Positions 151 through 11,617 of a stretch of DNA of 11,617 nucleotides are shown here, piece by piece. Position numbers and translations under genes: made by a program. Numbering within the stretch: the first letter of the stretch is position 1; the number at the start of each line of letters is the position of its first letter. The DNA comes from a virus (lineage: Duplodnaviria > Heunggongvirae > Uroviricota > Caudoviricetes), in the IMG/VR virus record IMGVR_UViG_2622736468_000004; one strand, written 5' to 3'. A model generated the notes under the pieces. It ran no database searches, had not been told where the DNA came from, and was given only the letters and a program-made list of their open reading frames with translations.

Positions 151-1689
151 TTATTCAGTCGGCAGTGCTACGCGCCAGGGGAGCAGTTCGCCGACCCGGT
201 TTATCGGCCAGTCGGCTATGACGTCAAGGACATAGCGGAGGTAGCTTTCTGGCTCCACTCCGTTCAGTTTGCACGTCCCGATCAGGCTGTACAGCAGCGC
301 TCCCCGCTCTCCTCCATGATCCGAACCGAAGAACAGGTAGTTTTTGCGGCCCAGACTGACCATCCGCAACGCATTTTCAGCGATGTTATTGTCCGCCTCA
401 GCCCAGCCATCATCTGCATAGTACGTCAGCGCCGGCCACTGGTTCAGGGCGTATGCGAACGCTTTCGCCAGTTCTGAGTGTCGCGACAGGGTTTTCATCT
501 TTTCACGCAGCCAGCTTTCCAGGGATTTCAGCAGCGGTTTCGTTTTCAACTGACGTTCGGCAAGGCGCTGTTCCGCCGTCATTCCCCTTATCTCTGCCTC
601 GATGGCGTACAGTTCGCCGATCCGTTTCAGCGCTTCCTCCGTCAGGGCTGACGGGGTGCGAACGTGCACATCGTGGATTTTACGGCGGGCGTGAGCCCAA
701 CAGGCGGCTTCCGTTATCCGGCCATCCCGGTACAGCTCGTTGAACCCGGCGTATGCATCCGCCTGCAGTACACCACTGAACCCCGCAAGATGGGTCTGCG
801 GATGGATGCCTTTTCTGTCCGGGCTGTAAGCGAACCACACCGCCGGCGCCAGCGTTGACCCGGCGTTACGGTCGTCACGAACATACGCCCACAACCGCCC
901 GGTCTTCGTTTTCTTATTGCCTGGCAACAGCACCGGGACAGGCGTGTCATCAACATGGAGCTTACCGTCAGTCAGCACATAGCCATGAAGCGCCTCTTCC
1001 AGCGGAGACAGCAGCCGGCAGCATGCATCCACCCAGCCCGACAGCAGTGAACGGCTCAGCTCCACACCTTGCCGGCCGTATATTTCTGACTGGCGATACA
1101 GCGGGGTGTGCTCTGCATACTTCGAGGTCAGCACGCGGGCCAGCAGCCCCGGTCCGGCGATACCCCGCTCGATGGGCCGCGAAGGTGCAGGTGCCTGCAC
1201 GATGGCATCGCACTGAGTACAGGCATGTTTTTCCCGTACCGTCCGGATAACCCGGAAGGCGCTACGCATCAACTCCAGCTGTTCGGCGGTATCCTCGCCC
1301 AGATAACTCAGTGAACCGCCGCAGTTCGGGCAGCACGGCGCCGCAGGCAACAGTCGCTTTTCGTCACGGGGTAGTGATTCAGGGAACGGCTTACGGGTGC
1401 GGGTCTGACGCAACGGACGCTGTACTGCCGGGTCATACACCCTACCAGTCAGCGTATCGCTCTCTTTCTGAAGCCGGTTCAGATCGGCTTCCATTTGTGC
1501 GATACGGCGGGAGACTTTTTCGGAACGACTGCCGAAGTTCATCCGGCGGAGTTTATCCAGCTGCGCCTGCAGATGGTCTATTTCGCGCTCCCGGTTGCTC
1601 AGCTTTTCCTGCAGGGCGTGGATCAGCGATTCCTGTTCGGCCAGGCGCTGTTTCAGCAGGAAGATGTCGTCAGAAGAGATGTCGTTCAT
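151..1689 (-). CDS. tnpC: IS66-family transposase TnpC (orfC), 512 aa
   Basis: Long minus-strand ORF with ATG start at 1687-1689. Has an N-terminal coiled-coil/leucine-rich region, a CxxC...CxxC zinc-ribbon (CCPNCGG...CTQCD) and a DDE-type core characteristic of IS66 TnpC. Sits between the IS66 IRs downstream of orfB. Confidence 0.9.
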
Positions 1690-1738
1690 AAGCCCGTATT
1701 TTACCGGGCTTATTCTGTGACAACCAGGATAAAGAGAT

Positions 1739-2086
1739 TTACAGCATGGTCAGGGAGGTCAGCAGCCGCTTAGGCTGTCGCCAGTCGATACCTTCCAGCA
1801 GCATCGCCAGCTGCGCCTGTGTAAGGAACACTTTGCCATCACGGGCTGACGGCCAGGCGAAGCGCCCACGCTCCAGCCGTTTGGTCAGGAGGCACAGTCC
1901 GTCACCGGTGGACCACAGCAGTTTAACCTGACTGCCGCTGCGGCCCCGGAAAATGAAAACATGGCCGGACATGGGATCGTCTTTCAGCGCCGTCTGTACT
2001 TTCGCAGCCAGGCCGTTGAAGCCATTTCTCATATCGGTGATACCGGCAACCAGCCAAATTTTGGTCCCGGAAGATAACGGGATCAT
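1739..2086 (-). CDS. tnpB: IS66-family accessory protein TnpB (orfB), 115 aa
   Basis: [33 protein letters not shown]... with ATG at 2084-2086; its start overlaps the orfA stop (ATGA-type overlap at 2083-2086), the typical IS66 orfA/orfB arrangement. Confidence 0.9.
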
Positions 2087-2462
2087 CGCTTCAGTTCCTG
2101 TATCAGCAGAGTCAGGAGCTTTTCGCTGACATTGCCATTGAAGCGGAGCGTCCCGTGCCGGAACGTTACCTCACAGCTGATACTGAGGGTTTTCGGGTCC
2201 TCTGCGAGCGATTCTGGCTGTTCGGCAGCTGCATCGAGAGTCACAGGAAGTAGCTGGGGCTCTCTGAAGAAGGTAATAGCAGCTTTCCCTCGCGCCATTG
2301 TTGTCGCCATTTGAACAACAGATTGGCGTTAATGCCATTTTCAAGAGCAAGTTTTGAGATGGATATCCCGGGTTCACAGGAGGCAGCAACGAGCTGCTGT
2401 TTAAATTCGGGAGGATAATTAGGGCAGCCTTTTCGCCTGCCGGGAGTCACATTTTTCTGCAT
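2083..2462 (-). pseudogene. tnpA: IS66 orfA (tnpA), split into two overlapping frames by an apparent 1-nt deletion in a homopolymer
   Basis: The N-terminal part (ORF 2241-2483; probable ATG at 2460-2462, MQKNVTPGRRKGCPNYPPEF...) and the C-terminal part (ORF 2083-2310, ...QLLPVTLDAAAEQPESLAEDPKTLSISCEVTFRHGTLRFNGNV...) overlap in different frames. Adding one G to the G4 run at 2256-2259 (C4 on the coding strand) would fuse them into one ~125-aa orfA reading ...SSESPQLLPVTL.... Confidence 0.65.
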
Positions 2463-2528
2463 ATCTGACACTTTGGTTCCCACTACTTATTTGGTGGACA
2501 CCACTTTGTCTAATTCGTCAGATTCTGA

Positions 2529-2554: not shown

Positions 2555-2805
2555 GTACCATACACGCCACAGTTTTTATATCAGATTTCTTATGCTGGGC
2601 GTTCCGGCATGACGCATACTCTTCTGATGCCATATAACGAATTGAGTCGCTTTTAAATGTCGCAAAATCAAGAAATTAGTAAGAAAGAACAATACAACCT
2701 GAACAAGTAAGGGCAAAAATCACAACTATCTGACTCATAAGTGTTTTACTTATTTTTCAATGTGTTAAACATCATCAGCGAGAACAATAAACTACGATAA
2801 TCCAC

Positions 2806-2869
2806 TCTTTTTTTGCCCCTTTTTTGCCCCTTTTGCAGCGTTTTGCCCCATTTTTGCCACAAAAAAAAA
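2806..2869. repeat. Phased T-tract/GCCCC degenerate tandem repeats (5 units at ~10-11 bp spacing) followed by an A9 tract
   Basis: Read directly: ctcttttttttgcccc / tttttgcccc / ttttgcagcg / ttttgcccca / tttttgccac / aaaaaaaaa. The helical-period spacing of T-tracts predicts intrinsically curved DNA. Confidence 0.6.
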
Positions 2870-2898
2870 TTCCAAAACGTCTCAATCAAAGTCAAACC

Positions 2899-2939
2899 AA
2901 CCGCAGCACGTTCTTGCATACGACGTGACTGCGGTTTTT
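2899..2939 (+). terminator. Candidate Rho-independent terminator or structured RNA element on the plus strand
   Basis: Imperfect ~13-bp stem (aaccgcagcacgt ... acgtgactgcggtt, one bulged base) with an 11-nt loop, immediately followed by TTTTT (2935-2939). Confidence 0.35.
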
Positions 2940-3258
2940 CAACTATTCAGATACATCACTCCCATCACATTCATTCCTCCGCATCATAGGCATATAGGCT
3001 ATATCACCTTGATATTTTTCTTCTTCAGATAAAAACTGTTATCTATGTATACTTTTAAACCCAATCCGTGTAGACTCTCTGCATAAGATAGTTTGCAGTT
3101 GCCGCTTCAGCTTGCGCCATAAACCGCCTGATTTTTGCTGCCACCTGTTAGCATTCCTGTATACCTGAAACGACAATGTTTATCTACGAACTTTAAGAAC
3201 ACCCAAGATAAAAATTGTCAACTATATCATATATAACACATTACTAATTCGAGGCTAT

Positions 3259-3372
3259 ATGAACAGCATACTGATAATCACATCTCTCCTTATCATATTC
3301 AGCATTTTTAGCCATGCCCTAATAAAATTAGGGATTGGCATATCCAATAACCCAGACAAAACCGATGTATAA
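3259..3372 (+). CDS. Candidate small hydrophobic peptide (37 aa), [37 protein letters not shown]
   Basis: ATG at 3259 is preceded by GAGG (3251-3254) at SD-appropriate spacing and the product has a single predicted TM helix. It is not in the ORF track (below the length cutoff). Caution: AT-rich DNA yields hydrophobic ORFs by chance. Confidence 0.25.
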
Positions 3373-3440
3373 GTCAACATATCCTGAATCAGACATACAA
3401 TATCGCAATGAAAATCAATAATATTTTAAGGAATATCTTC

Positions 3441-3674
3441 ATGAAATCAAAAGACACCCTAAAGTGGTTCCCTGCGCAGCTTCCTGAAGTAAGAATTATC
3501 CTAGGGGGTGCTGTAGTGGAAGTAGCAAAACAGGGAAGACCTATCAATACCAGAACATTGCTTGATTACATTGAAGGAAACATAAAGAAAAAATCATGGC
3601 TGGATAACAAAGAATTATTACAAACAGCGATATCAGTTCTTAAAGACAACCAAAATTTAAATGGTAAAATGTAA
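3441..3674 (+). CDS. Hypothetical small protein (77 aa from the second ATG; the ORF track gives 88 aa from 3408)
   Basis: ORF 3408-3674. The internal ATG at 3441 is preceded by AAGGA (taaggaatatcttcATG), so 3441 is the favoured start. Basic, lysine-rich product with no family recognised by eye. Confidence 0.45.
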   Translation: MKSKDTLKWFPAQLPEVRIILGGAVVEVAKQGRPINTRTLLDYIEGNIKKKSWLDNKELLQTAISVLKDNQNLNGKM

Positions 3675-3922
3675 TATAATAAACTTACTTTTTTATCATT
3701 TTTCCACTTTAACAACATTTTGCTCCACTTTTCCACGACCAAACAACTTGAAATCTGGTTAAAATAACACGCAACACTATTCTTCTTCCTTGAGTCCGCC
3801 CGGAACTCGAAAAACAAACCGAGTTAAAGCCATTTTTCACAAAATCGATTTTGGGTCTCACCAAAATTACGGGGTTGCATACGCATTCGTTTATTTTCGA
3901 ACGTGTAGGTAATGACTCCAAC

Positions 3923-4426
3923 TTATTGATAGTGTTTTATGTTCAGATAATGCCCGATGACTTTGTCATGCAGCTCCACCGATTTTGAGAACGACAGCGA
4001 CTTCCGTCCCAGCCGTGCCAGGTGCTGTCTCAGATTCAGGTTATGCCGCTCAATTCGCTGCGTATATCGCTTGCTGATTACGTGCAGCTTTCCCTTCAGG
4101 CGGGATTCATACAGCGGCCAGCCATCCGTCATCCATATCACCACGTCAAAGGGTGACAGCAGGCTCATAAGACACCCCAGCGTCGCCAGAGTGCGTTCAC
4201 CGAATACGTGCGCAACAACCGTCTTCCGGAGCCTGTCATACGCGTAAAACAGCCAGCGCTGGCGCGATTTAGCCCCGACATAGCCCCACTGTTCGTCCAT
4301 TTCCGCGCAGACGATGACGTCACTGCCCGGCTGTATGCGCGAGGTTACCGACTGCGGCCTGAGTTTTTTAAGTGACGTAAAATCGTGTTGAGGCCAACGC
4401 CCATAATGCGGGCTGTTGCCCGGCAT
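3923..4426 (-). CDS. insB: IS1 InsB reading frame (expressed as an InsAB' fusion by -1 frameshifting)
   Basis: [53 protein letters not shown]... is canonical IS1 InsB. It overlaps insA in the -1 frame. Confidence 0.9.
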
Positions 4427-4620
4427 CCAACGCCATTCATGGCCATATCAATGATTTTCTGGTGCGTACCGGGTTGAGAAGCGGTGTAAGTGAACTGCAG
4501 TTGCCATGTTTTACGGCAGTGAGAGCAGAGATAGCGCTGATGTCCGGCGGTGCTTTTGCCGTTACGCACCACCCCGTCAGTAGCTGAACAGGAGGGACAG
4601 CTGATAGAAACAGAAGCCAC
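4345..4620 (-). CDS. insA: IS1 InsA (transposition inhibitor / N-terminal part of the InsAB' transposase), 91 aa
   Basis: [42 protein letters not shown]... is the classic IS1 InsA with a CxxC...CxxC zinc finger. Confidence 0.95.
4363..4369 (-). other. IS1 programmed -1 ribosomal frameshift site (A6C slippery heptamer) between insA and insB
   Basis: Plus-strand gtttttt at 4363-4369 is AAAAAAC on the coding strand, inside the insA/insB overlap. Confidence 0.8.
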
Positions 4621-4653
4621 TGGAGCACCTCAAAAACACCATCATACACTAAA

Positions 4654-5565
4654 TCAGTAAGTTGGCAGCATCACCCGACTTTCGAATACGGAATCATTTG
4701 TCACCCCCATTGATATGCAGGGTGTCTTCTTCCTGTATTTTTCGTGAAGGATTTTTACTGCAGCGTTGTTCCAGGTGACCTGATGGTGAATGCGTTTATG
4801 GCTGGCACCCATCAGTGAGATTTTTACGCACGACGGCGCATACATGACGGAGTAAAAACTTTTAACGTAGGTTCCGGAATCCAGATACAGCTCGGTCATT
4901 CCGCCGCTGTTTTTCTGCGTCTGTTTCTGCCCTAACTGGACAGCACCGATCGTCATAAACAATTCACCACAGCGGCCGAGATTCGTGTACGTATTCACAT
5001 CCTCGTTAATGCGCCCCATGAATGAGAACGGTCGATCAACCGAACAGATAAAGCTGTTCATTGCCTTGCGTTTCACCCACGAAGCATGGCCGCCATTGTC
5101 ACCAAGAAAATCCCCGCCCTGCGACATAGCGATGGAAAGAGCAGGTATTGATTCGTAGTACGCCAGCATTTCAGAAAGGATCGCATCCAGTTTCCTTATC
5201 GGAAAATAGGCCTGGTCATAGTTGCGATCCACCCGAAACTGGAACTCGTGATAATCATCATCGAGCTGAATGAAGTATTTACACCCGACCAGTTTTGCCT
5301 GGTCGAAACAGGCATTACGGGCGTAAAAAATTGAGCGGCGGTCACAGAAATTATCGGCTTCGTCAAAACGACTGGCGATATCGGCTTTGGAAAACACCAG
5401 CACCTGTTCACCAAATTCAGCCATGTACTGATGCCGTGTCTTATCTTCATCATCAACAACGATAAAAATTTTCCCGGTATAGCCAGCACGACGCAACGTC
5501 CGGTAAGTCAGAACTTTGTCCGGTCGCCCGTGAGTCAGAATAAAGGCGCAAAAATCATCACGCAT
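4654..5565 (-). CDS. Uncharacterised protein with a GT-A-like signature (tentative), translationally coupled to the upstream ParB-like gene; 3' end disrupted by IS1
   Basis: ORF 4654-5586; the favoured start is ATG 5563-5565 (MRDDFCAFILTHGRPDKV...), directly preceded by GAGGAGGAGG and overlapping the ParB-like stop (ATGCGTGA). The N-terminus has a beta-strand/THGRPD/...IFIVVDDEDKT layout and a later IQLDDDY, resembling nucleotide-sugar transferase DxD motifs. The last 6-7 codons and the stop (4654-4675) lie in IS1 sequence, so the native C-terminus is lost. Confidence 0.55.
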   Translation of the reverse strand: MRDDFCAFILTHGRPDKVLTYRTLRRAGYTGKIFIVVDDEDKTRHQYMAEFGEQVLVFSKADIASRFDEADNFCDRRSIFYARNACFDQAKLVGCKYFIQLDDDYHEFQFRVDRNYDQAYFPIRKLDAILSEMLAYYESIPALSIAMSQGGDFLGDNGGHASWVKRKAMNSFICSVDRPFSFMGRINEDVNTYTNLGRCGELFMTIGAVQLGQKQTQKNSGGMTELYLDSGTYVKSFYSVMYAPSCVKISLMGASHKRIHHQVTWNNAAVKILHEKYRKKTPCISMGVTNDSVFESRVMLPTY

Positions 5566-6349
5566 ATTCCTCCTCCTCACCACCATGCATGATCTCCACC
5601 ATGCGCTGCGTCATCCGGACAAATCCATTTTCAATAGCCTGCTGATAATCAATGATCACCAGCGCCGACTCCTCGAAAAAACACTGAATTTCAGCGGGGG
5701 CGTGAGCGTAATAGTCCGCAATTCTGCTGAAATTAAACACCGTGTGACGTTCTGCCGCACACAGGAGGAATTTCTCAATATCAGGCTCAAGGGACGCCGA
5801 ACGTATCCGGCTGATCAGCTCCTGAGTTTTCGTATCGTCGTACAGTTCACTGATATCCGGTTTACCGCCCGACGGCTCATAAACAGGCGTATCAATTTTC
5901 GTCGTATACGGCTCCTCCTCATTTCCTGTACCGGGCAAAACATCCGTCAACAGTTCATCAATTTCTGTCGGGATGAAGCCTGTCAGGGAGACATCAAAAT
6001 CAGCATTGATTAGGTCCGACAGCTCCATCCGCAACAGATCTTCATCCCAGCCAGCATTCATCGGCAGGCGATTATCTGCCAGGCGGTACGCCTTTTTCTG
6101 CTCATCCGTCAGGCCAGACAGAACAATGACCGGAACAGAATCCATTTTGAGCATTTCAGCCGCCATAACACGACTGTGACCCGCAATAATTTCGCCCTTT
6201 TCGTCAATCAGCACCGGATTAGTCCAGCCGAATTGCTTAATACTTTCTACCAGTTGTGCCACCTGCTCAGTACTGTGCGTCCTGGCGTTGTGCGCATACG
6301 GTGACAATTCTTGTAATGGGCGATAGACTATCTTTAATTTCTCGCTCAT
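5558..6349 (-). CDS. ParB-like nuclease-domain (ParB/sulfiredoxin fold) protein, 263 aa, acidic C-terminal tail
   Basis: ATG at 6347-6349 with AAGG upstream. The N-terminal region (PLQELSPYAHNARTHS...VLIDEKGEIIAGHSRVMAAEML) matches the ParB N-terminal domain, with an A-G-x-x-R-x-x-A-A box corresponding to the ParB GERRxRAA motif. The C-terminus ends in a GGEEEEYA acidic tail. Confidence 0.75.
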   Translation of the reverse strand: MSEKLKIVYRPLQELSPYAHNARTHSTEQVAQLVESIKQFGWTNPVLIDEKGEIIAGHSRVMAAEMLKMDSVPVIVLSGLTDEQKKAYRLADNRLPMNAGWDEDLLRMELSDLINADFDVSLTGFIPTEIDELLTDVLPGTGNEEEPYTTKIDTPVYEPSGGKPDISELYDDTKTQELISRIRSASLEPDIEKFLLCAAERHTVFNFSRIADYYAHAPAEIQCFFEESALVIIDYQQAIENGFVRMTQRMVEIMHGGEEEEYA

Positions 6350-6376
6350 ACAGCCTTGCTTTATGAATAAAACGCA

Positions 6377-6400
6377 CCCCAGCAGCCAGTGCTACTGGGG
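6377..6400 (-). terminator. Candidate terminator hairpin downstream of trkG (minus strand)
   Basis: Minus-strand RNA CCCCAGUAG-cacugg-CUGCUGGGG (9-bp stem with one G-U) followed after 4 nt by UUUUAUU. The non-adjacent U-tract makes it only moderate. Confidence 0.3.
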
Positions 6401-6486
6401 ACGGAGGTGTTGCTGGTAAAGTTAGGTATTGGATCAATGAGTGAGTCAACATAATATTAAACTCACAATTATAAATCAGCCATATA

Positions 6487-7944
6487 TTAGGAGCGCCAAA
6501 AAAAACCTGAAAACAATATAATAACAGGATAAATTTCAAGGCGACCAAGAATCATAGCTATGCACATTAAACATTTTGCAATGTCATTAAGCACTCCGAA
6601 TGACGATGCAGTAGCCCCAAAACCTAATCCCATATTATTAATACATGCAGCCACTGTTGCAAATGATGTAAGAAAATCATATCCCATACCATTTAACACC
6701 AGTATAAAAAACACCGTGAAGAGAGTATAAAGAAAAAAGAAACTCCATACAGACCTCATTACACGATCTGTAACTATCTTCCCTCCTACATTTACACTCA
6801 ACAACGCTCTGGGATGAGAAAGCTGATTTATCTCGTGTTTGCTTTGTTTGAAAAGTATAAGAAATCGAAGTGACTTAATTCCACCACAAGTTGAACCTAT
6901 ACATCCCCCAAAGAAACTTGACAACAGCAAAAACACTATCGTGTGCGTGGGCCAACTTGCATAATCCTGCGTAGCTAAACCATTATCAGTGAGCATGGAG
7001 CTGGCAAGAAAAAACGAATGAATAAAACTTCCATGCAAGTCATACATACCTATATGCCAGACCTGGAAAGAGGTAACAATGATCACCCCTAAGGCTATTA
7101 ACAGAAAGAAACGAAGTTCAATATCTCTGATTAAAGGTTTTATCGTTTTCCTGCTAATAACAATATACCAAAGAGTGAAGTTGAAAGCCGATAGCAGGGA
7201 AAAAGAACCAGCCACCAGCTCAACCAAATAGTTATTAAAATATCCGATACTCTCGCTATGAGTTGAGAAACCACCAAGCGAAACTGTGGAAATCCCGTGA
7301 CAAATAGCATCAAACAAAGGCATTCCTGCAAGTCTATAACAGACAATACAAGCAATACCTAATAAAGAATAAGTTATCCACAGTGTCCGTGACGTATCGG
7401 CCAGGCGGGGAGTGAGTTTGTCATCCTTAAATGGCCCCGGCATTTCTGACTGATAAAGCTTTGCACCACCAATACCCAATAATGGCAATACAGCAACCGC
7501 CAGAACAATAACTCCTAAACCACCTATAAAATTTAACTGTGACCGATAGTACAAATATGCCCGAGGTAATGAACTAACATCATCAATTACAGTTGCTCCT
7601 GTTGTTGTTATTCCAGAAACCCCTTCAAACAGAGCATCAATGAACGTTAAATTAAGTTCTGAGTCAATCCATAAAGGGAATGCACTAATAACAGAAAACA
7701 AAATCCAAAACATTACAATTATAATAAACCCATCACGGGTACGTAATTGAATGCCAGATTTCTTAGTTGTATACCACGCTCCGCCACCAATGCAAAAAAA
7801 TATAACGAAAGTTATAAAGAAAACGAACAGGCTTTTTTCTTTATAAAACAATGCTACAACCATTGGTGGCAACATTGAAAGACTATAGAGCCAAACCAGG
7901 AACCCACACATATGAGTAACAACTCTTACATGAGATGTATTCAT
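6487..7944 (-). CDS. trkG: TrkH/TrkG-family potassium uptake membrane protein (prophage-borne TrkG), 485 aa
   Basis: Polytopic membrane protein with repeated pore-loop motifs (e.g. GITTTGATV, GGFST, NGLATQD, GLGFGAT). From memory, the sequence beginning MNTSHVRVVTHMCGFLVWLYSLSMLPP corresponds to Rac-prophage TrkG of E. coli. The ORF track starts at a TTG (7962, with AAGGTGG upstream); the ATG at 7942-7944 gives the 485-aa form. Markedly AT-rich relative to its neighbours. Confidence 0.8.
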   Translation of the reverse strand: MNTSHVRVVTHMCGFLVWLYSLSMLPPMVVALFYKEKSLFVFFITFVIFFCIGGGAWYTTKKSGIQLRTRDGFIIIVMFWILFSVISAFPLWIDSELNLTFIDALFEGVSGITTTGATVIDDVSSLPRAYLYYRSQLNFIGGLGVIVLAVAVLPLLGIGGAKLYQSEMPGPFKDDKLTPRLADTSRTLWITYSLLGIACIVCYRLAGMPLFDAICHGISTVSLGGFSTHSESIGYFNNYLVELVAGSFSLLSAFNFTLWYIVISRKTIKPLIRDIELRFFLLIALGVIIVTSFQVWHIGMYDLHGSFIHSFFLASSMLTDNGLATQDYASWPTHTIVFLLLSSFFGGCIGSTCGGIKSLRFLILFKQSKHEINQLSHPRALLSVNVGGKIVTDRVMRSVWSFFFLYTLFTVFFILVLNGMGYDFLTSFATVAACINNMGLGFGATASSFGVLNDIAKCLMCIAMILGRLEIYPVIILFSGFFWRS

Positions 7945-8081
7945 ATCTAAATATTCTTTCAATTATAACCACCTTGCTGCAATATTATGATTATACTGTA
8001 TAAAATTTAACTCCTCTTAGATCTTACTTCACTGTTCCTTATGAAACAATCATCAAAATGAATCATATTGTAGTTAAGATT

Positions 8082-8546
8082 TTACTTTAAACACTGCTCG
8101 GTTATGTATTGCTGAGCACCTTCAAGTTGGGCCTGCATCATTACCAGTCGTTCCCGGAGGGTGAAATAATCCCGTTCAGCGGTGTCTGCCAGTCGGGGGG
8201 AGGCTGCATTATCCACGCCGGAGGCGGTGGTGGCTTCCCGCACTGACTGACAGACTGCTTTGATGTGCAACCGACGACGACCAGCGGCAACATCATCACG
8301 CAGAGCATCATTTTCAGCTTTCGCATCAGCTAACTCCTTCGTGTATTTTGCATCGAGCGCAGCAATATCACGCTGACGCATCTGCATGTCAGTAATTGCC
8401 GCGTTCGCCAGCTTCAGTTCTCTGGCATTTTTGTCGCGCTGGGCTTTGTAGGTAATGGCGTTATCACGGTAATGATTAACAGCCCATGACAGGCAGACGA
8501 TGATGCAGATAACCAGAGCGGAGATAATCGCGGTTACTCTGTTCAT
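8082..8546 (-). CDS. Rz: Rz i-spanin (inner-membrane spanin subunit)
   Basis: [60 protein letters not shown]... closely resembles lambda Rz as I recall it. The ATG at 8544-8546 overlaps the endolysin stop (ATGA). Has an N-terminal TM helix followed by a coiled-coil. Confidence 0.9.
8141..8326 (-). CDS. Rz1: Rz1 o-spanin lipoprotein, wholly embedded in Rz in the +1 frame
   Basis: [52 protein letters not shown]... has a lipobox (VVGC) and a proline-rich mature region; ATG at 8324-8326. The embedded architecture is the hallmark of lambda-type spanins. Confidence 0.85.
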
Positions 8547-9040
8547 TGCTGACCCCACAAACAGATTTCACGCTCAATCTCACGACGAGTCATGAGACCT
8601 TTCCATTGCTTACCGCCAGCATATGTCCAGCGACGTAGCTGATCACATGCGCCTTTGATATCGCCCTGGTTTATTTTGCGAAGAAGCGTCGATGTTCTGA
8701 AATTGCCAGCACCCACGTTGTAAACGAATGAGTAAAGAGCGCCGCGCGTTGTTTCCGGTATATCGACTTTGATGTACGGGTTAATTTGTCTGGCGACAGT
8801 GGCAAGGTCTTTATTCAAGAGTGTTTTGCATTCTGCTTTGGTATACGTTTTACCGAGCATGATGTCTTTTCCTGTATGCCCGTGACATACAGTCCATACA
8901 CCAACAATATCTTTGTATGGTATGTAGCTGACACCTTCCAGACCATCGTTACCACTTGGGCCAGTGATTAACACTGATGCTATAGCAATTGCTCCGCCAC
9001 CAATAGCAGCAGCAACGACTTTTCGTAATGATGGAGGCAT
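8543..9040 (-). CDS. R: SAR endolysin (phage-21 R-type, T4-lysozyme/GH24 fold), 165 aa
   Basis: The N-terminal Gly/Ala-rich weakly hydrophobic SAR domain ([21 protein letters not shown]) is followed by the catalytic triad E-x8-D-x5-T ([16 protein letters not shown]). The ATG at 9038-9040 overlaps the holin stop. Confidence 0.9.
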
Positions 9041-9255
9041 TATTCACCTCTCGCAGCCTTGCGCTTATCTTCTTTAATCTTGAAATAAAGGTTTGTCAGG
9101 TACGTCAGCAGGCCAAATACCAGACTACCCAGCACACCGATTGCAGCCCACTGTGACGGAGTTACTCTATCGAGCAACTGTAAAAACCAGTAGCCAGCAC
9201 TGCCTGCGGAGGTGCCGTAGGCAATGCCTGTTGAAATTTTGTCCATGGATTTCAT
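9040..9255 (-). CDS. S: Pinholin (phage-21 S21-type class II holin) with dual-start motif MKSM, 71 aa
   Basis: [71 protein letters not shown] has two TM domains and Met1/Met4 dual starts (antiholin/holin). GGAGGTGA Shine-Dalgarno upstream of ATG 9253-9255. The ORF track's longer 90-aa form (start 9312) lacks comparable support. Confidence 0.85.
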
Positions 9256-9289
9256 AGCCTCACCTCCGCACGGAACGGATGGCATAGTT

Positions 9290-9317
9290 ATTATGTGTAG
9301 GCTTTCAGACACATCAA
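9290..9317 (-). promoter_or_regulatory. Candidate sigma70-type promoter immediately upstream of the holin (minus strand)
   Basis: On the minus strand: TTGATG (-35; plus coordinates 9312-9317), a 16-bp spacer, then CATAAT (-10; plus coordinates 9290-9295), about 35 nt upstream of the S start codon. Hexamer match only. Confidence 0.25.
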
Positions 9318-9356
9318 TCAGAGCCTTAATTGATATATATGCTGGAGACGATGCAA

Positions 9357-9381
9357 TATAAAAAGCTCGCCGTAGCGAGCT
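9357..9381 (-). terminator. Rho-independent terminator (minus strand) between the TolA-like lipoprotein gene and the lysis cassette
   Basis: Minus-strand RNA AGCUCGC-uacg-GCGAGCU (perfect 7-bp GC-rich stem, tetraloop) immediately followed by UUUUUAUA. Confidence 0.55.
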
Positions 9382-9506
9382 AATAAAATGTATTTCTCTG
9401 ATATTATGTTTATTTGTATTAGCTCAGACTTGACATCACAGGTTTCGTATATAGAACATCATCAAATCTGTCAGTTTGCTATGAATGAGATATAGTAATT
9501 GAAGAG

Positions 9507-9902
9507 CTAACCTCGCATGTCAAAGCCAGATTTCTGAAAATCTCTGTAGACTTCCGGATTGTTGAAGGCCGGAAATTTGGCTTTATGAGCTGCGGACTTT
9601 ATCGCTTCGCAATAGGCTTTATCACCGTTACTGGTAGATATTTTTAACGCCGTGCCATCCTGAGAGAATTCCATATGCAACCTGCATTTTTTCCCTTTCC
9701 AGTTATGCGGCTCATCAAGTTTGGCATTAATTGCAGCTCTGATTCCCCGCGCTTGCGCCCCCCATTCATCCTGATCATCCCAGCGTCCTGAACTGCAACT
9801 ACCTGTAGCAGTAGTTTTGTGGCAATCTGAAGGGTGTAAAGGTGTGCATCCCGCAACAAAACCGACCCAAAAAGTCAACATAACGATTTTCTTTAATCCC
9901 AC
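9507..9902 (-). CDS. Prophage lipoprotein with a TolA C-terminal (domain III)-like domain, 131 aa
   Basis: GTG start at 9900-9902 preceded by GAGGAG (an in-frame ATG lies at 9879-9881). Signal peptide with lipobox (FVAGC). The C-terminal ~80 aa (KKCRLHMEFSQDGTALKISTSNGDKAYCEAIKSAAHKAKFPAFNNPEVYRDFQ) follow the TolA domain III pattern as I recall it (TCTLRIKLAPDGMLLDIKPEGGDPALCQAALAAAKLAKIPKPPSQAVYEVFK). Confidence 0.7.
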   Translation of the reverse strand: MGLKKIVMLTFWVGFVAGCTPLHPSDCHKTTATGSCSSGRWDDQDEWGAQARGIRAAINAKLDEPHNWKGKKCRLHMEFSQDGTALKISTSNGDKAYCEAIKSAAHKAKFPAFNNPEVYRDFQKSGFDMRG

Positions 9903-10053
9903 TTCTTGCTCCTCAATCCATTAAAATCTCAGCAATAGTAGTTGTTACGTCCGCCACTGGCTCAGAGCTGACTATCCGCTAAATTTAGCTCAGTGCCGTA
10001 GCTGTGTCAGAACAAACCTAAGCCGAAACCGTTTATTACAAAACAATAAATAT

Positions 10054-10225
10054 CAGGGTTTAAAATCCAGCACCCCATTTTGAAATACTTTATATACTTC
10101 CGGCGAAGGGGGGGCAGGTATATCAGCATTCTTTATCGCATTCATCGCTTCACGACATAAATCGAGGTCTCCACTTTCTCTTTTAACCTCCAGTAGAAGG
10201 CCATTCGGGGCCATATGCATTCTCA
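10054..10225 (-). pseudogene. 3' fragment (C-terminal 56 codons) of a second TolA-C-like gene, 5'-truncated by IS1
   Basis: Manual minus-strand translation of 10225 to 10054 gives ...RMHMAPNGLLLEVKRESGDLDLCREAMNAIKNADIPAPPSPEVYKVFQNGVLDFKP*, which matches the TolA domain III C-terminus pattern (...PLDFKP). The frame is open up to the IS1 boundary at 10226. Not in the ORF track. Confidence 0.6.
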
Positions 10226-10280
10226 GGTGATGCTGCCAACTTACTGATTTAGTGTATGATGGTGTTTTTGAGGTGCTCCA

Positions 10281-10556
10281 GTGGCTTCTGTTTCTATCAG
10301 CTGTCCCTCCTGTTCAGCTACTGACGGGGTGGTGCGTAACGGCAAAAGCACCGCCGGACATCAGCGCTATCTCTGCTCTCACTGCCGTAAAACATGGCAA
10401 CTGCAGTTCACTTACACCGCTTCTCAACCCGGTACGCACCAGAAAATCATTGATATGGCCATGAATGGCGTTGGATGCCGGGCAACAGCCCGCATTATGG
10501 GCGTTGGCCTCAACACGATTTTACGTCACTTAAAAAACTCAGGCCGCAGTCGGTAA
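10281..10556 (+). CDS. insA: IS1 InsA
   Basis: Identical 91-aa InsA sequence to the other copy. Confidence 0.95.
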
Positions 10557-10978
10557 CCTCGCGCATACAGCCGGGCAGTGACGTCATCGTCTGCGCGGAA
10601 ATGGACGAACAGTGGGGCTATGTCGGGGCTAAATCGCGCCAGCGCTGGCTGTTTTACGCGTATGACAGGCTCCGGAAGACGGTTGTTGCGCACGTATTCG
10701 GTGAACGCACTATGGCGACGCTGGGGTGTCTTATGAGCCTGCTGTCACCCTTTGACGTGGTGATATGGATGACGGATGGCTGGCCGCTGTATGAATCCCG
10801 CCTGAAGGGAAAGCTGCACGTAATCAGCAAGCGATATACGCAGCGAATTGAGCGGCATAACCTGAATCTGAGACAGCACCTGGCACGGCTGGGACGGAAG
10901 TCGCTGTCGTTCTCAAAATCGGTGGAGCTGCATGACAAAGTCATCGGGCATTATCTGAACATAAAACACTATCAATAA
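10475..10978 (+). CDS. insB: IS1 InsB reading frame (InsAB' via -1 frameshift)
   Basis: Canonical InsB sequence; the A6C slippery site lies at 10532-10538. Confidence 0.9.
10532..10538 (+). other. IS1 programmed -1 frameshift heptamer AAAAAAC
   Basis: ttaaaaaactc, within the insA/insB overlap. Confidence 0.8.
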
Positions 10979-10993
10979 GTTGGAGTCATTACC

Positions 10994-11617
10994 ACAGAAT
11001 TCAATGCATTAATGGAAAGTGAAAAAGGACAGAGCCAGAACTTGTGGAAATTTGCCGTTTACTCAGGACTTCGTCACGGGGAACTGGCAGCTCTGGCGTG
11101 GGAGGATGTGGATCTCGAAAAGGGAATAGTGAATGTCAGAAGAAACCTGACGATACTTGATATGTTCGGTCCCCCAAAAACAAATGCCGGGATCCGAACA
11201 GTAACACTACTGCAGCCTGCTCTTGAAGCACTGAAGGAGCAATACAAACTGACCGGGCATCATCGCAAAAGCGAAATCACCTTTTATCATCGGGAGTACG
11301 GCAGAACCGAAAAGCAAAAACTGCATTTTGTTTTCATGCCCAGGGTGTGTAACGGAAAACAAAAACCTTATTACTCGGTAAGCAGTTTGGGGGCAAGGTG
11401 GAATGCAGCAGTAAAACGTGCTGGTATTCGCCGCCGTAATCCGTACCATACGCGACATACTTTTGCCTGCTGGCTGTTGACGGCAGGAGCGAACCCGGCA
11501 TTTATAGCCAGCCAAATGGGGCATGAAACTGCGCAGATGGTGTATGAAATTTACGGTATGTGGATTGATGACATGAACGACGAACAGATAGCCATGTTGA
11601 ATGCGCGGTTATCGTAG
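10994..11617 (+). pseudogene. C-terminal catalytic fragment of a tyrosine recombinase (phage integrase family), N-terminus removed by IS1
   Basis: The frame is open from the IS1 boundary (TEFNALMESEKGQ...) to the stop at 11615-11617. Contains catalytic-domain signatures: ...NAGIRTVTL..., HTRHTFACWLL (H-x-x-R), GHETAQM, and the terminal tyrosine region VYEIYGMW. The N-terminal DNA-binding/core-binding domains are absent. Confidence 0.8.

What the first reader, a model, noticed from the sequence alone, without database searches (positions are those of the whole stretch)
4654..6349. Translationally coupled ParB-like / GT-A-like two-gene module in the phage late region, partner gene clipped by IS1
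A 263-aa ParB N-terminal-domain protein with a variant box (AGHSRVMAA rather than GERRxRAA) and an acidic EEEE tail ends 4 nt inside the start of the next gene (ATGCGTGA overlap). The GAGGAGGAGG run that encodes the tail doubles as the Shine-Dalgarno for the partner. The partner has a GT-A-like layout (THGRPD ... IFIVVDDEDKT ... IQLDDDY) but no match I can place from memory. ParB-like domains recur in phage DNA-modification and defence-associated proteins, so a ParB-like DNA-binding/nuclease component coupled to a possible sugar transferase could be an uncharacterised nucleic-acid modification or defence/counter-defence module. It is also the probable counterpart of the degraded ynaK/ydaY region next to trkG in Rac-like prophages. 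Function is unassigned; the GT-A call is pattern-based.
Basis: partly seen in the sequence, partly recalled or inferred. Interest (0 to 1): 0.65.

Follow-up and report, generated by a model that had tools for sequence, protein, structure and literature searches.

The report
Phage glycosyltransferase with ParB-like partner
A decayed prophage carries a two-gene unit found in many phages: a sugar-transferring enzyme from the family that decorates phage DNA, plus a ParB-like helper protein; no enzyme that normally prepares DNA for sugar attachment is present, so its target is an open but testable question.

Summary

The main new result concerns the C-terminal acidic domain of the "ParB" protein. 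In my samples it accompanies this TAGT clade whichever gene I start from, across bacterial phyla and an archaeal virus. The genes nearly always overlap stop to start and usually sit just upstream of the packaging genes. The ParB N-domain is optional, and is the same subtype that is fused to phage DNA methyltransferases. No hydroxymethyl-pyrimidine-making enzyme was found in the complete genomes I examined.

Best reading: a late-expressed, ParB-assisted DNA glycosylation cassette whose acceptor is unknown. It is a new variant of a known kind.

The parts
5558..6349 (-). Partner gene (full-length ynaK), 263 aa: ParB/Srx N-domain, two-helix spacer, disordered linker, acidic C-terminal domain
6050..6349 (-). 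ParB/Srx nucleotide-binding-type N-domain (aa 1-100); box II reads GHSR instead of GERR
5561..5929 (-). TAGT-partner domain (aa 141-263): linker motif plus acidic helical domain. No Pfam family. It accompanied this TAGT clade in every informative locus sampled.
   Evidence: Conserved in ParB-fused and stand-alone (~130 aa) forms. There are 1188 representative clusters at 50% identity, and the domain is C-terminal in the 150 best listed. A scan starting from this domain found TAGT in 79 of 80 loci.
5873..5908 (-). Conserved linear motif Y-T-x-K-I-D-T-P-V-Y-E-P (aa 148-159) within a predicted disordered linker
   Evidence: Y148, P155, Y157 and P159 are invariant across distant and stand-alone forms. 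pLDDT is below 50 for aa 136-161.
4676..5565 (-). TAGT-family GT-A glycosyltransferase, native part (residues 1-297 of 310)
4654..4675 (-). IS1-encoded replacement tail (V-MLPTY) and stop codon of the clipped transferase ORF
   Evidence: IS1 terminal repeat at 4653-4675. Alignment to the intact 310-aa protein.
5558..5565 (-). 8-nt stop/start overlap ATGCGTGA, the translational coupling site
   Evidence: Sequence. The same geometry occurs in 56 of 152 pairs elsewhere, and ATGCGTGA itself in 35.
5567..5578 (-). Purine run GAGGAGGAGGAA, which encodes the EEEE tail and is Shine-Dalgarno-like for the transferase
   Evidence: Sequence. An acidic tail is conserved in homologues. Its function as a ribosome-binding site is inferred.
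6377..6400 (-). Intrinsic terminator-like hairpin of the trkG moron, 28 nt upstream of the partner gene's ATG
   Evidence: 10-bp stem with 7 GC pairs, followed by TGCGTTTTAT. No convincing promoter lies between it and the ATG.
3908..4675 (.). IS1 copy that clips the transferase gene and replaces the terminase-to-tail genes
   Evidence: Both terminal repeats located. Intact relatives continue into TerS, TerL and portal.

Best explanation
This is a two-gene, translationally coupled phage cassette for post-replicative glycosylation of DNA.

The downstream gene encodes a TAGT-family GT-A glycosyltransferase that would use a nucleotide-sugar donor (DxD-type metal site, D102-D104).

The upstream gene encodes its partner. 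The acidic C-terminal domain, with the linear motif YxxKIxxPxYEP in front of it, is the part tied to the transferase. I infer that it docks or regulates the enzyme.

The N-terminal ParB/Srx nucleotide-binding-type domain is the subtype also fused to phage DNA methyltransferases. It is related in architecture to the ParB proteins that switch on phage thymine dioxygenases on duplex DNA. I infer that it holds or activates the enzyme on double-stranded DNA.

The pair usually lies just upstream of the packaging genes, so in lambdoid phages it would be made late, from the Q-antiterminated late transcript. Progeny DNA would then be modified just before encapsidation, plausibly to blunt restriction in the next host.

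Shown: family memberships, folds, catalytic-motif conservation, the two-way gene linkage, the overlap geometry, the position next to terminase genes, and the absence of TET/JBP or hydroxymethylase genes.

Inferred: physical complex formation, DNA as the target, the timing, and the protective role.

Unknown: the acceptor atom and the sugar.

In this window the cassette is a remnant. The late promoter, Q and all packaging and structural genes have been lost to IS1 events.
For: 1. TAGT membership and GT-A fold with an invariant R...DDD...ED motif. This is the motif reported for phage GT-A DNA glycosyltransferases.
2. The phage TAGT/GT-A enzymes described in the papers I read act on DNA: on 5hmC, or on glucose already attached to hmC in T2/T6.
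3. The partner's N-terminal region (aa 3-144) matches the N-terminal part of phage DNA methyltransferase profiles at 3e-50 and 3e-38. Of 435 phage records with this N-domain, many annotate it as a DNA methyltransferase, for example Javan105.
4. The predicted architecture is an N-terminal nucleotide-binding-type domain, a short helical spacer, a disordered linker and a C-terminal domain, with no HTH. This matches the description of ParB176, which is required for its dioxygenase on dsDNA.
5. Linkage holds in both directions. A partner lies directly upstream in 50 of 51 informative species-level loci across phyla. TAGT was found in 79 of 80 loci retrieved with the partner domain. 144 of 152 pairs overlap.
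6. Only these two genes are conserved among 56 neighbourhoods. The downstream terminases belong to at least four unrelated types.
7. In Lactobacillus phage c5 the pair are ORF1 and ORF2, immediately after the cos site.
8. In some relatives, accessory enzymes are wedged inside the cassette. These are a cytidylyltransferase-phosphatase, a radical SAM enzyme, CofD-like plus NTP-transferase genes, and a methyltransferase fusion. This resembles multi-step hypermodification clusters.
Against: - No enzyme that would create the usual hydroxyl acceptor is present. Complete genomes carrying the cassette (Rac-type ON470614, phage c5) have no TET/JBP or thymidylate-synthase-like gene. Canonical DNA bases offer no hydroxyl.
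- The partner is strongly acidic (pI 4.5; the C-domain 4.4) and has no recognisable DNA-binding domain.
- The ParB domain is absent from many partners (60 of 80), so DNA clamping cannot be essential to the enzyme.
- A eukaryotic TAGT homologue, GREB1, is reported to glycosylate a protein.
- No physical interaction or activity was tested here.
Confidence: 0.5

Rival explanations
1. The transferase glycosylates a protein, not DNA. The acceptor could be the partner itself, for example one of the invariant tyrosines in the disordered YxxKIxxPxYEP motif (as glycogenin glucosylates its own tyrosine). It could also be a packaging, virion or host protein, with the partner's C-domain acting as substrate or adaptor.
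For: - GREB1, a TAGT homologue, is reported to O-GlcNAcylate ER-alpha.
- No hydroxymethyl-pyrimidine pathway is present.
- The invariant Tyr/Pro motif sits in a predicted disordered segment directly upstream of the transferase-linked domain.
- The partner is acidic and lacks a DNA-binding domain.
- Stand-alone partners without ParB are common.
Against: - The ParB domain fused to most genomic partners is the subtype fused to DNA methyltransferases.
- The phage TAGT/GT-A enzymes described in the papers I read act on DNA.
- The GREB1 in vitro activity was weak and not donor-specific by its authors' own account.
- The threonine in the motif is not conserved.
Confidence: 0.2
2. The pair acts on another nucleic-acid or nucleotide substrate, for example hydroxyl-bearing modified tRNA bases, DNA ends, or a signalling nucleotide. 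It would serve as a counter-defence or host-takeover function unrelated to bulk DNA modification.
For: - The acceptor problem stated above applies here too.
- In large Vibrio phages the cassette sits among replication genes rather than next to the terminase.
- The accessory nucleotidyl-transferase-type genes would also fit small-molecule chemistry.
Against: - No match to any PADLOC defence or anti-defence model for the transferase or the partner domain.
- The position directly upstream of the packaging genes recurs across phages with unrelated terminases.
- Nothing links the pair to RNA-handling genes.
Confidence: 0.12
3. The ParB-like protein is a packaging accessory, acting as a nuclease or as a pac/cos-binding or partition factor. 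The transferase would be an unrelated moron that merely travels with it.
For: - The pair lies next to cos and the terminase genes.
- Proteins of this kind are commonly annotated as 'ParB-like nuclease' or 'partition protein'.
- Stand-alone ParB N-domain proteins occupy the same position in other phages.
Against: - The domain strictly tied to the transferase is the C-domain, not the ParB domain, and it occurs without ParB in many phages.
- There is no ParA, no HTH and no parS-type partner.
- A conserved stop/start overlap in 144 of 152 pairs argues for one functional unit.
- The cassette occurs with four unrelated terminase types.
Confidence: 0.05
4. The pair is a ParB-like small terminase plus a large-terminase fragment. 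This is the refutation case the first reader named.
For: Only the position in the late region.
Against: - Pfam places the partner gene in TAGT, with no terminase match.
- Its fold is GT-A.
- Intact relatives have separate TerS (Terminase_2) and TerL (Terminase_6N/6C) genes immediately downstream.
Confidence: 0.01

Closest known systems
ParB-dependent phage thymine dioxygenases (5mYOX176/ParB176; O'Toole et al., PNAS 2026, PMC13229309)
   Same: A phage ParB-like protein with an N-terminal nucleotide-binding domain, a short helical spacer, a disordered linker and a C-terminal domain, but no DNA-binding domain. It is encoded next to a post-replicative DNA-modifying enzyme and near terminase genes. 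Pairing is specific to the cognate partners.
   Different: The partner enzyme here is a GT-A glycosyltransferase, not an Fe/2OG dioxygenase, and no dioxygenase is present. Box II here is GHSR/GHGR. In this family the ParB domain is often absent.
Phage TAGT / GT-A DNA glycosyltransferases: the 5mYOX-associated GT-A enzymes of Pyle et al., and the T2/T6 beta-glucosyl-HMC-alpha-glucosyltransferase (PF20691)
   Same: Same Pfam family, same GT-A fold and same R...DDD...ED motif.
   Different: Those enzymes have a defined acceptor made by a TET-like dioxygenase or a dCMP hydroxymethylase. This clade has neither, and instead has a partner protein in every informative locus sampled. The clade is also unusually conserved, at 43-59% identity across phyla.
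ParB-domain-DNA methyltransferase fusions of phages (phrog_498; PADLOC MTase_II; surveyed by Kaljevic et al. 2025, PMC12704722)
   Same: The same ParB N-domain subtype (31-52% identity in the listed phage hits). It sits at the same genomic position, upstream of the terminase genes, and is joined to a DNA-modifying enzyme.
   Different: There the enzyme is fused in one polypeptide and uses SAM. Here it is a separate, translationally coupled glycosyltransferase, reached through an extra C-terminal domain.
GREB1 (animal TAGT-domain protein)
   Same: Homologous glycosyltransferase domain. NCBI names the bacterial protein 'GREB1-related'.
   Different: GREB1 is a large eukaryotic protein reported to O-GlcNAcylate a nuclear receptor. 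It has no ParB-type partner.
Canonical partition ParB/Spo0J/KorB/Noc
   Same: The fold and several nucleotide-site positions of the N-domain are shared: R60 aligns with the last arginine of GERR, and N93 aligns in box III.
   Different: There is no ParA gene, no HTH and no canonical dimerisation domain. The catalytic Glu of GERR is replaced by His. TIGR00180 scores 38 bits against a cutoff of 58.

Membership tests
TAGT, TET-associated glycosyltransferase (Pfam PF20691) | Profile match above the curated gathering score | tested here: met
   120.4 bits against a cutoff of 27.5, E 1.2e-34, covering profile positions 4-205 of 205. phrog_842 1e-103.
TAGT, TET-associated glycosyltransferase (Pfam PF20691) | GT-A (nucleotide-diphospho-sugar transferase) fold | tested here: met
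TAGT, TET-associated glycosyltransferase (Pfam PF20691) | [quoted passage not shown] | tested here: met
   R14, D102-D103-D104 and E188-D189 are invariant in 25 sequences down to 60% identity. The third position after ED is V, not Y/F.
TAGT, TET-associated glycosyltransferase (Pfam PF20691) | Genomic association with a TET/JBP dioxygenase or another source of hydroxymethyl pyrimidine (the association that names the family) | tested here: not met
   None in the Rac-type phage ON470614 or phage c5. None in the precomputed Pfam of three other neighbourhoods. No third conserved gene in 56 loci.
TAGT, TET-associated glycosyltransferase (Pfam PF20691) | Transfers a sugar to a DNA-borne acceptor | not testable with these tools
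   Needs enzymology or nucleoside mass spectrometry.
ParB/Srx N-terminal domain superfamily | Profile match and fold | tested here: met
Partition-type ParB (CTP-dependent clamp, ParABS) | GERRxRA box II with the catalytic Glu; an HTH that binds parS; a ParA partner | tested here: not met
   Box II is GHSR (family consensus GHGR). No HTH was detected. TIGR00180 is below its cutoff. The neighbours are trkG and the transferase, not parA.
Partition-type ParB (CTP-dependent clamp, ParABS) | Binds and hydrolyses CTP | not testable with these tools
   R60 and N93 align with phosphate-binding positions, but the hydrolysis residues differ. Nucleotide specificity cannot be predicted from sequence.
ParB activators of phage DNA-modifying enzymes (as defined for 5mYOX-associated ParB) | Architecture: N-terminal nucleotide-binding domain, linker and C-terminal domain, without a DNA-binding domain | tested here: met
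   AF2: confident domain at aa 1-95, helices at 103-134, disordered 136-161, helical C-domain at 166-255. Compared with the published description.
ParB activators of phage DNA-modifying enzymes (as defined for 5mYOX-associated ParB) | Encoded next to, and required by, a cognate DNA-modifying enzyme acting on dsDNA | tested here: inconclusive
   Adjacency and coupling to an enzyme of a DNA-modifying family are very strong. The requirement, and DNA as the substrate, were not tested. The enzyme class differs.
Phage terminase (small or large subunit) | Terminase profile match; position as the first packaging genes | tested here: not met
   No terminase family matches either protein. True TerS and TerL follow in intact relatives.
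Known anti-phage defence systems (PADLOC) | Match to a defence-system protein model | tested here: not met
   The transferase and the partner C-domain have no hit. The ParB domain hits only a type II methyltransferase model.

The most novel reading that the evidence does not exclude
The partner-domain/TAGT cassette carries out a glycosylation chemistry that needs no hydroxymethyl pyrimidine. It might put a sugar directly on an otherwise unmodified DNA base or DNA end. Alternatively it might glycosylate the invariant tyrosine motif of its own partner, giving a glycoprotein that acts on or with phage DNA. If so, a large and unrecognised class of phages, including Rac-type prophages in about one in six complete E. 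coli genomes, would carry a previously unknown DNA or DNA-associated modification.
Probability: 0.25. Interest if true: 0.85.

Novelty: new variant of a known kind. Interest (0 to 1): 0.6.

Why it matters
Phage DNA glycosylation is currently understood as decoration of 5-hydroxymethyl or 5-hydroxy pyrimidines. ParB-like helpers have only recently been shown to switch on one class of phage DNA-modifying enzyme.

This cassette joins the two themes in a new combination: a ParB-type partner with a glycosyltransferase and no hydroxylating enzyme. It is not rare.
- The complete pair is in 904 of 5426 complete E. coli genomes. Its stump is the K-12 gene ynaK.
- Close relatives (43-59% identity) occur across bacterial phyla and in a haloarchaeal virus.

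One published survey set aside about 65% of phage GT contigs as 'not obviously' DNA-related. The partner domain defined here gives at least part of that set a recognisable signature and a genetically easy E. coli model.

If DNA turns out to be the target, the result would extend the chemistry of natural DNA modification and the ParB-activator principle. If a protein is the target, it would give the first bacterial or phage handle on the protein-directed activity claimed for GREB1.

Tried and rejected
- **Terminase reading:** rejected.
- **ydaY as the transferase remnant:** rejected.
- **Partition ParB:** rejected, because there is no ParA and no HTH, and it scores below the TIGR00180 cutoff.
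- **Defence system:** no PADLOC support.
- **Solved structure of a homologue:** none found by sequence for the transferase.
- **Literature on the ParB-TAGT pairing:** no paper in the library mentions both terms. Iyer et al. 2013, which defined TAGT and may discuss ParB links, is not held. Its view is known to me only second-hand, through Burke et al..
- **ParB176 sequence for direct comparison:** not obtainable. No supplements are held.
- **First structure job:** I repeated it with P0002 as the first row.
- **First viral-contig scan:** returned mostly near-identical E. coli prophages, so I took diversity from genome contigs and from a scan seeded with a stand-alone partner.
- **Co-divergence test:** the Mantel correlation between partner and transferase distances is r 0.52 overall (0 of 999 permutations reach it), but only 0.12 among distant pairs. 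I give it little weight (the first attempt failed on short fragments).
- **Direct profile scan of all about 225 loci for TET/JBP:** not done, because no seed sequence was available offline. The negative result rests on two complete genomes, three precomputed neighbourhoods and the neighbour clustering.
Full report
**What is in the window.**
- The finding lies on the minus strand. ORF 5558-6349 encodes a 263-aa protein.
- The next gene starts at ATG 5565 (MRDDF...) and runs to a stop at 4654-4656.
- The two genes overlap by 8 nt (5558-5565, ATGCGTGA). The purine run GAGGAGGAGGAA (5567-5578) encodes the EEEE tail of the first protein and sits just before the second ATG.
- IS1 occupies 3908-4675.

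**Surrounding genes.** The block is the late region of a Rac-type lambdoid prophage that IS elements have cut down on both sides.
- trkG (6487-7962)
- Rz (8082-8558), lysozyme (8543-9040) and a P21-type holin (9040-9312)
- Two TolA-C-domain ORFs
- A second, inverted IS1 (10226-10993)
- An integrase fragment (11012-11617)
- An IS66-family element (151-2483)

**Identity of the two proteins.**
- The upstream protein matches Pfam ParB_N just above threshold and PHROG 620 at 6e-90. In E. coli genomes it is annotated as ynaK.
- Its AGHSRVMAA segment aligns with the GERRYRAA box II of Spo0J.
- The downstream protein matches Pfam PF20691, TET-associated glycosyltransferase (TAGT), at 1.2e-34 and 120 bits. 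It matches PHROG 842 at 1e-103. PGAP calls it 'GREB1-related protein'.
- No solved structure is detectable by sequence.
- R14, D102-D104, E188-D189 and H260-H261 are invariant in homologues down to 60% identity. This reproduces the R...DDD...ED motif described for phage GT-A DNA glycosyltransferases.

**Extent of the IS1 damage.**
- An intact relative, Escherichia phage vB_EcoS-666R9 (ON470614), encodes a 310-aa transferase.
- The window copy is identical through residue 298 apart from two substitutions. It replaces the last 12 residues with five IS1-encoded ones.
- Most homologues are only 285-290 aa, so the catalytic domain is untouched.
- This exact junction occurs in only one of 5426 complete E. 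coli genomes.
- What the IS1 events did remove is everything downstream: a 69-aa gene, TerS, TerL, portal, head and tail genes. The upstream Q/late-promoter region is also gone.
- In this strain the cassette is therefore an orphaned remnant.

**Relation to K-12.** In MG1655 the order is trkG-ynaK-ydaY-ynaA.
- ynaK corresponds to the first 254 nt of the gene here.
- YdaY is 98% identical to a protein encoded between the tail-tube and tape-measure genes of the intact phage. It has no similarity to the transferase.
- K-12 therefore lost the transferase and about 10 kb of morphogenesis genes in one deletion.

**How general the pair is.**
- The 1674-bp pair is at least 80% covered in 904 of 5426 complete E. 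coli genomes.
- A scan of one genome per species found 53 loci at 43-99% identity. They come from Enterobacterales, Bacteroidota, Bacillota, Desulfobacterota, Chlorobiota, Acidobacteriota, Actinomycetota and candidate phyla.
- In 50 of 51 informative loci, a homologue of the upstream protein lies directly upstream on the same strand.
- Clustering of neighbours in 56 loci showed only these two genes to be conserved.
- The genes that follow are terminases of unrelated types (Terminase_6N, T7-like, GpA, TerL_ATPase) and portals.
- Cultured examples include Lactobacillus phage c5, where the pair are ORF1 and ORF2 directly after the cos site. Others are phi jlb1, Nocardia phage NTR1 and the haloarchaeal virus HHTV-2.

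**The partner is a fusion, and its C-terminal half is the part tied to the transferase.**
- The AlphaFold2 model (mean pLDDT 70.7) has four parts: a confident ParB/Srx domain (aa 1-95); two helices (103-134); a disordered stretch (136-161); and a helical C-domain (166-255).
- Splitting the profile showed that several loci, including the 191-kb Vibrio phage pv27, encode only the C-terminal part as a protein of about 130 aa upstream of the transferase.
- The stand-alone and fused forms share an invariant motif, Y-x-x-K-I-x-x-P-x-Y-E-P, and a conserved helical core.
- Scanning viral contigs with this domain returned 80 loci:
  - 70 have TAGT immediately downstream.
  - 9 have it within 2.4 kb.
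  - In 1, the contig ends 670 nt after the partner gene, too short to hold a complete TAGT ORF.
  - 60 of the 80 partners lack the ParB domain.
- Across 152 pairs, 144 overlap stop to start, mostly by 8 nt (56 pairs) or 11 nt (64 pairs).
- An exhaustive search found 1188 representative clusters with the domain. It is C-terminal in the 150 best listed.
- The domain has no Pfam, PADLOC or NCBIfam family. It is acidic, pI 4.4 against 8.3 for the transferase.

**What the ParB domain says.**
- Residues 3-144 match the N-terminal part of phage DNA methyltransferase profiles (phrog_498 3e-50; PADLOC MTase_II 3e-38).
- Of 435 phage records with a similar domain, many annotate it as an adenine or 'DNA modification' methylase. 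Such genes also sit upstream of terminase genes.
- A 2025 survey likewise found phage ParB folds fused to N6/N4 methyltransferases. It does not mention glycosyltransferases.
- A 2026 study showed that a phage ParB-like protein is required for its neighbouring thymine dioxygenase to act on duplex DNA. That protein has the same domain plan and no DNA-binding domain, and mutations in its nucleotide-binding site had little effect.

**The acceptor problem.**
- The phage TAGT/GT-A enzymes described in the papers I read glycosylate 5hmC, or the glucose already on hmC.
- I found no TET/JBP or hydroxymethylase gene in the Rac-type phage or in phage c5. None appears in three neighbourhoods with precomputed Pfam.
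- A published mining study noted that about 65% of phage GT contigs lack such neighbours, and set them aside.
- Some relatives carry extra enzymes inside the cassette: a phosphatase-cytidylyltransferase, a radical SAM protein, CofD-like plus NTP-transferase genes, and a methyltransferase fusion. This suggests a multi-step modification, but does not reveal the acceptor.

**Conclusion.**
- The best-supported model is a late-expressed, partner-dependent DNA glycosylation cassette. The C-domain docks or regulates the transferase, and the optional ParB domain helps it work on duplex DNA before packaging.
- I put this at about 0.5 because the acceptor is unexplained.
- A protein-directed activity, as reported for GREB1, remains a serious rival. 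The partner's own tyrosine motif is a possible target.
- Both proteins belong to known families, but this combination appears undescribed in the literature I could search: a dedicated partner domain, an optional ParB domain, and no hydroxylase.

Noticed in passing
window 3908-4675 and 10226-10993: Two complete 768-bp IS1 copies in inverted orientation bracket the whole surviving late-region block (4676-10225). No pairing of flanks shows a matching target duplication, so adjacent deletions or rearrangements occurred. Q/pR' and the terminase-to-tail genes are gone.
   Followed up: partly
window 9507-9902 (-) and 10053-10220 (-): Two ORFs with a TolA C-terminal domain lie upstream of the holin (Pfam PF06519, 1e-14 and 3e-11). 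The first is 131 aa with a lipoprotein-like N-terminus. The second is a 5'-truncated copy cut by IS1. They could be a prophage decoy for Tol-dependent phages or colicins.
   Followed up: partly
window 6377-6400 (-) and 6487-7962 (-): trkG is a moron inserted between Rz and the cassette. It carries its own strong intrinsic terminator 28 nt before the partner gene's ATG, so the cassette would depend on antiterminated read-through.
   Followed up: partly
window 151-2483 (-): IS66-family element, with transposase at 151-1689 and the TnpB-like Orf2 at 1739-2086. It is followed by an AT-rich stretch (about 2600-3900) containing an 88-aa ORF (3408-3674, +) with no family match.
   Followed up: partly
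window 11012-11617 (+): C-terminal fragment of a tyrosine integrase that begins 19 nt after the second IS1 ends and runs off the window end.
   Followed up: partly
L207:2034-3029, L149:5712-6692, L167:3107-5477, L205:4929-6596, L114:2970-3845: Some relatives carry extra genes between or beside the partner gene and TAGT. These are a His-phosphatase+cytidylyltransferase fusion, a radical SAM enzyme, a CofD-like protein plus a MobA-like NTP transferase, a TAGT-methyltransferase fusion, and a second TAGT paralogue. They hint at multi-step elaboration of the product.
   Followed up: partly
L228:4001-6746 (Streptococcus phage Javan105): A ParB-domain-adenine methyltransferase is followed by a cytosine methyltransferase with the same 8-nt stop/start overlap. 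This is the same coupling geometry as the cassette studied here.
   Followed up: no
L089:9102-10008 (Shigella flexneri SFBU0723): The partner gene is split into two ORFs (N-domain 9102-9491; remainder 9502-10008) upstream of an intact transferase. This suggests decay of the ParB part in Shigella.
   Followed up: no
L001:17828-18940: The intact phage's head-morphogenesis protein (Phage_Mu_F domain) is annotated in the record as an NAD+-asparagine ADP-ribosyltransferase. Only the Mu F domain was confirmed here.
   Followed up: no
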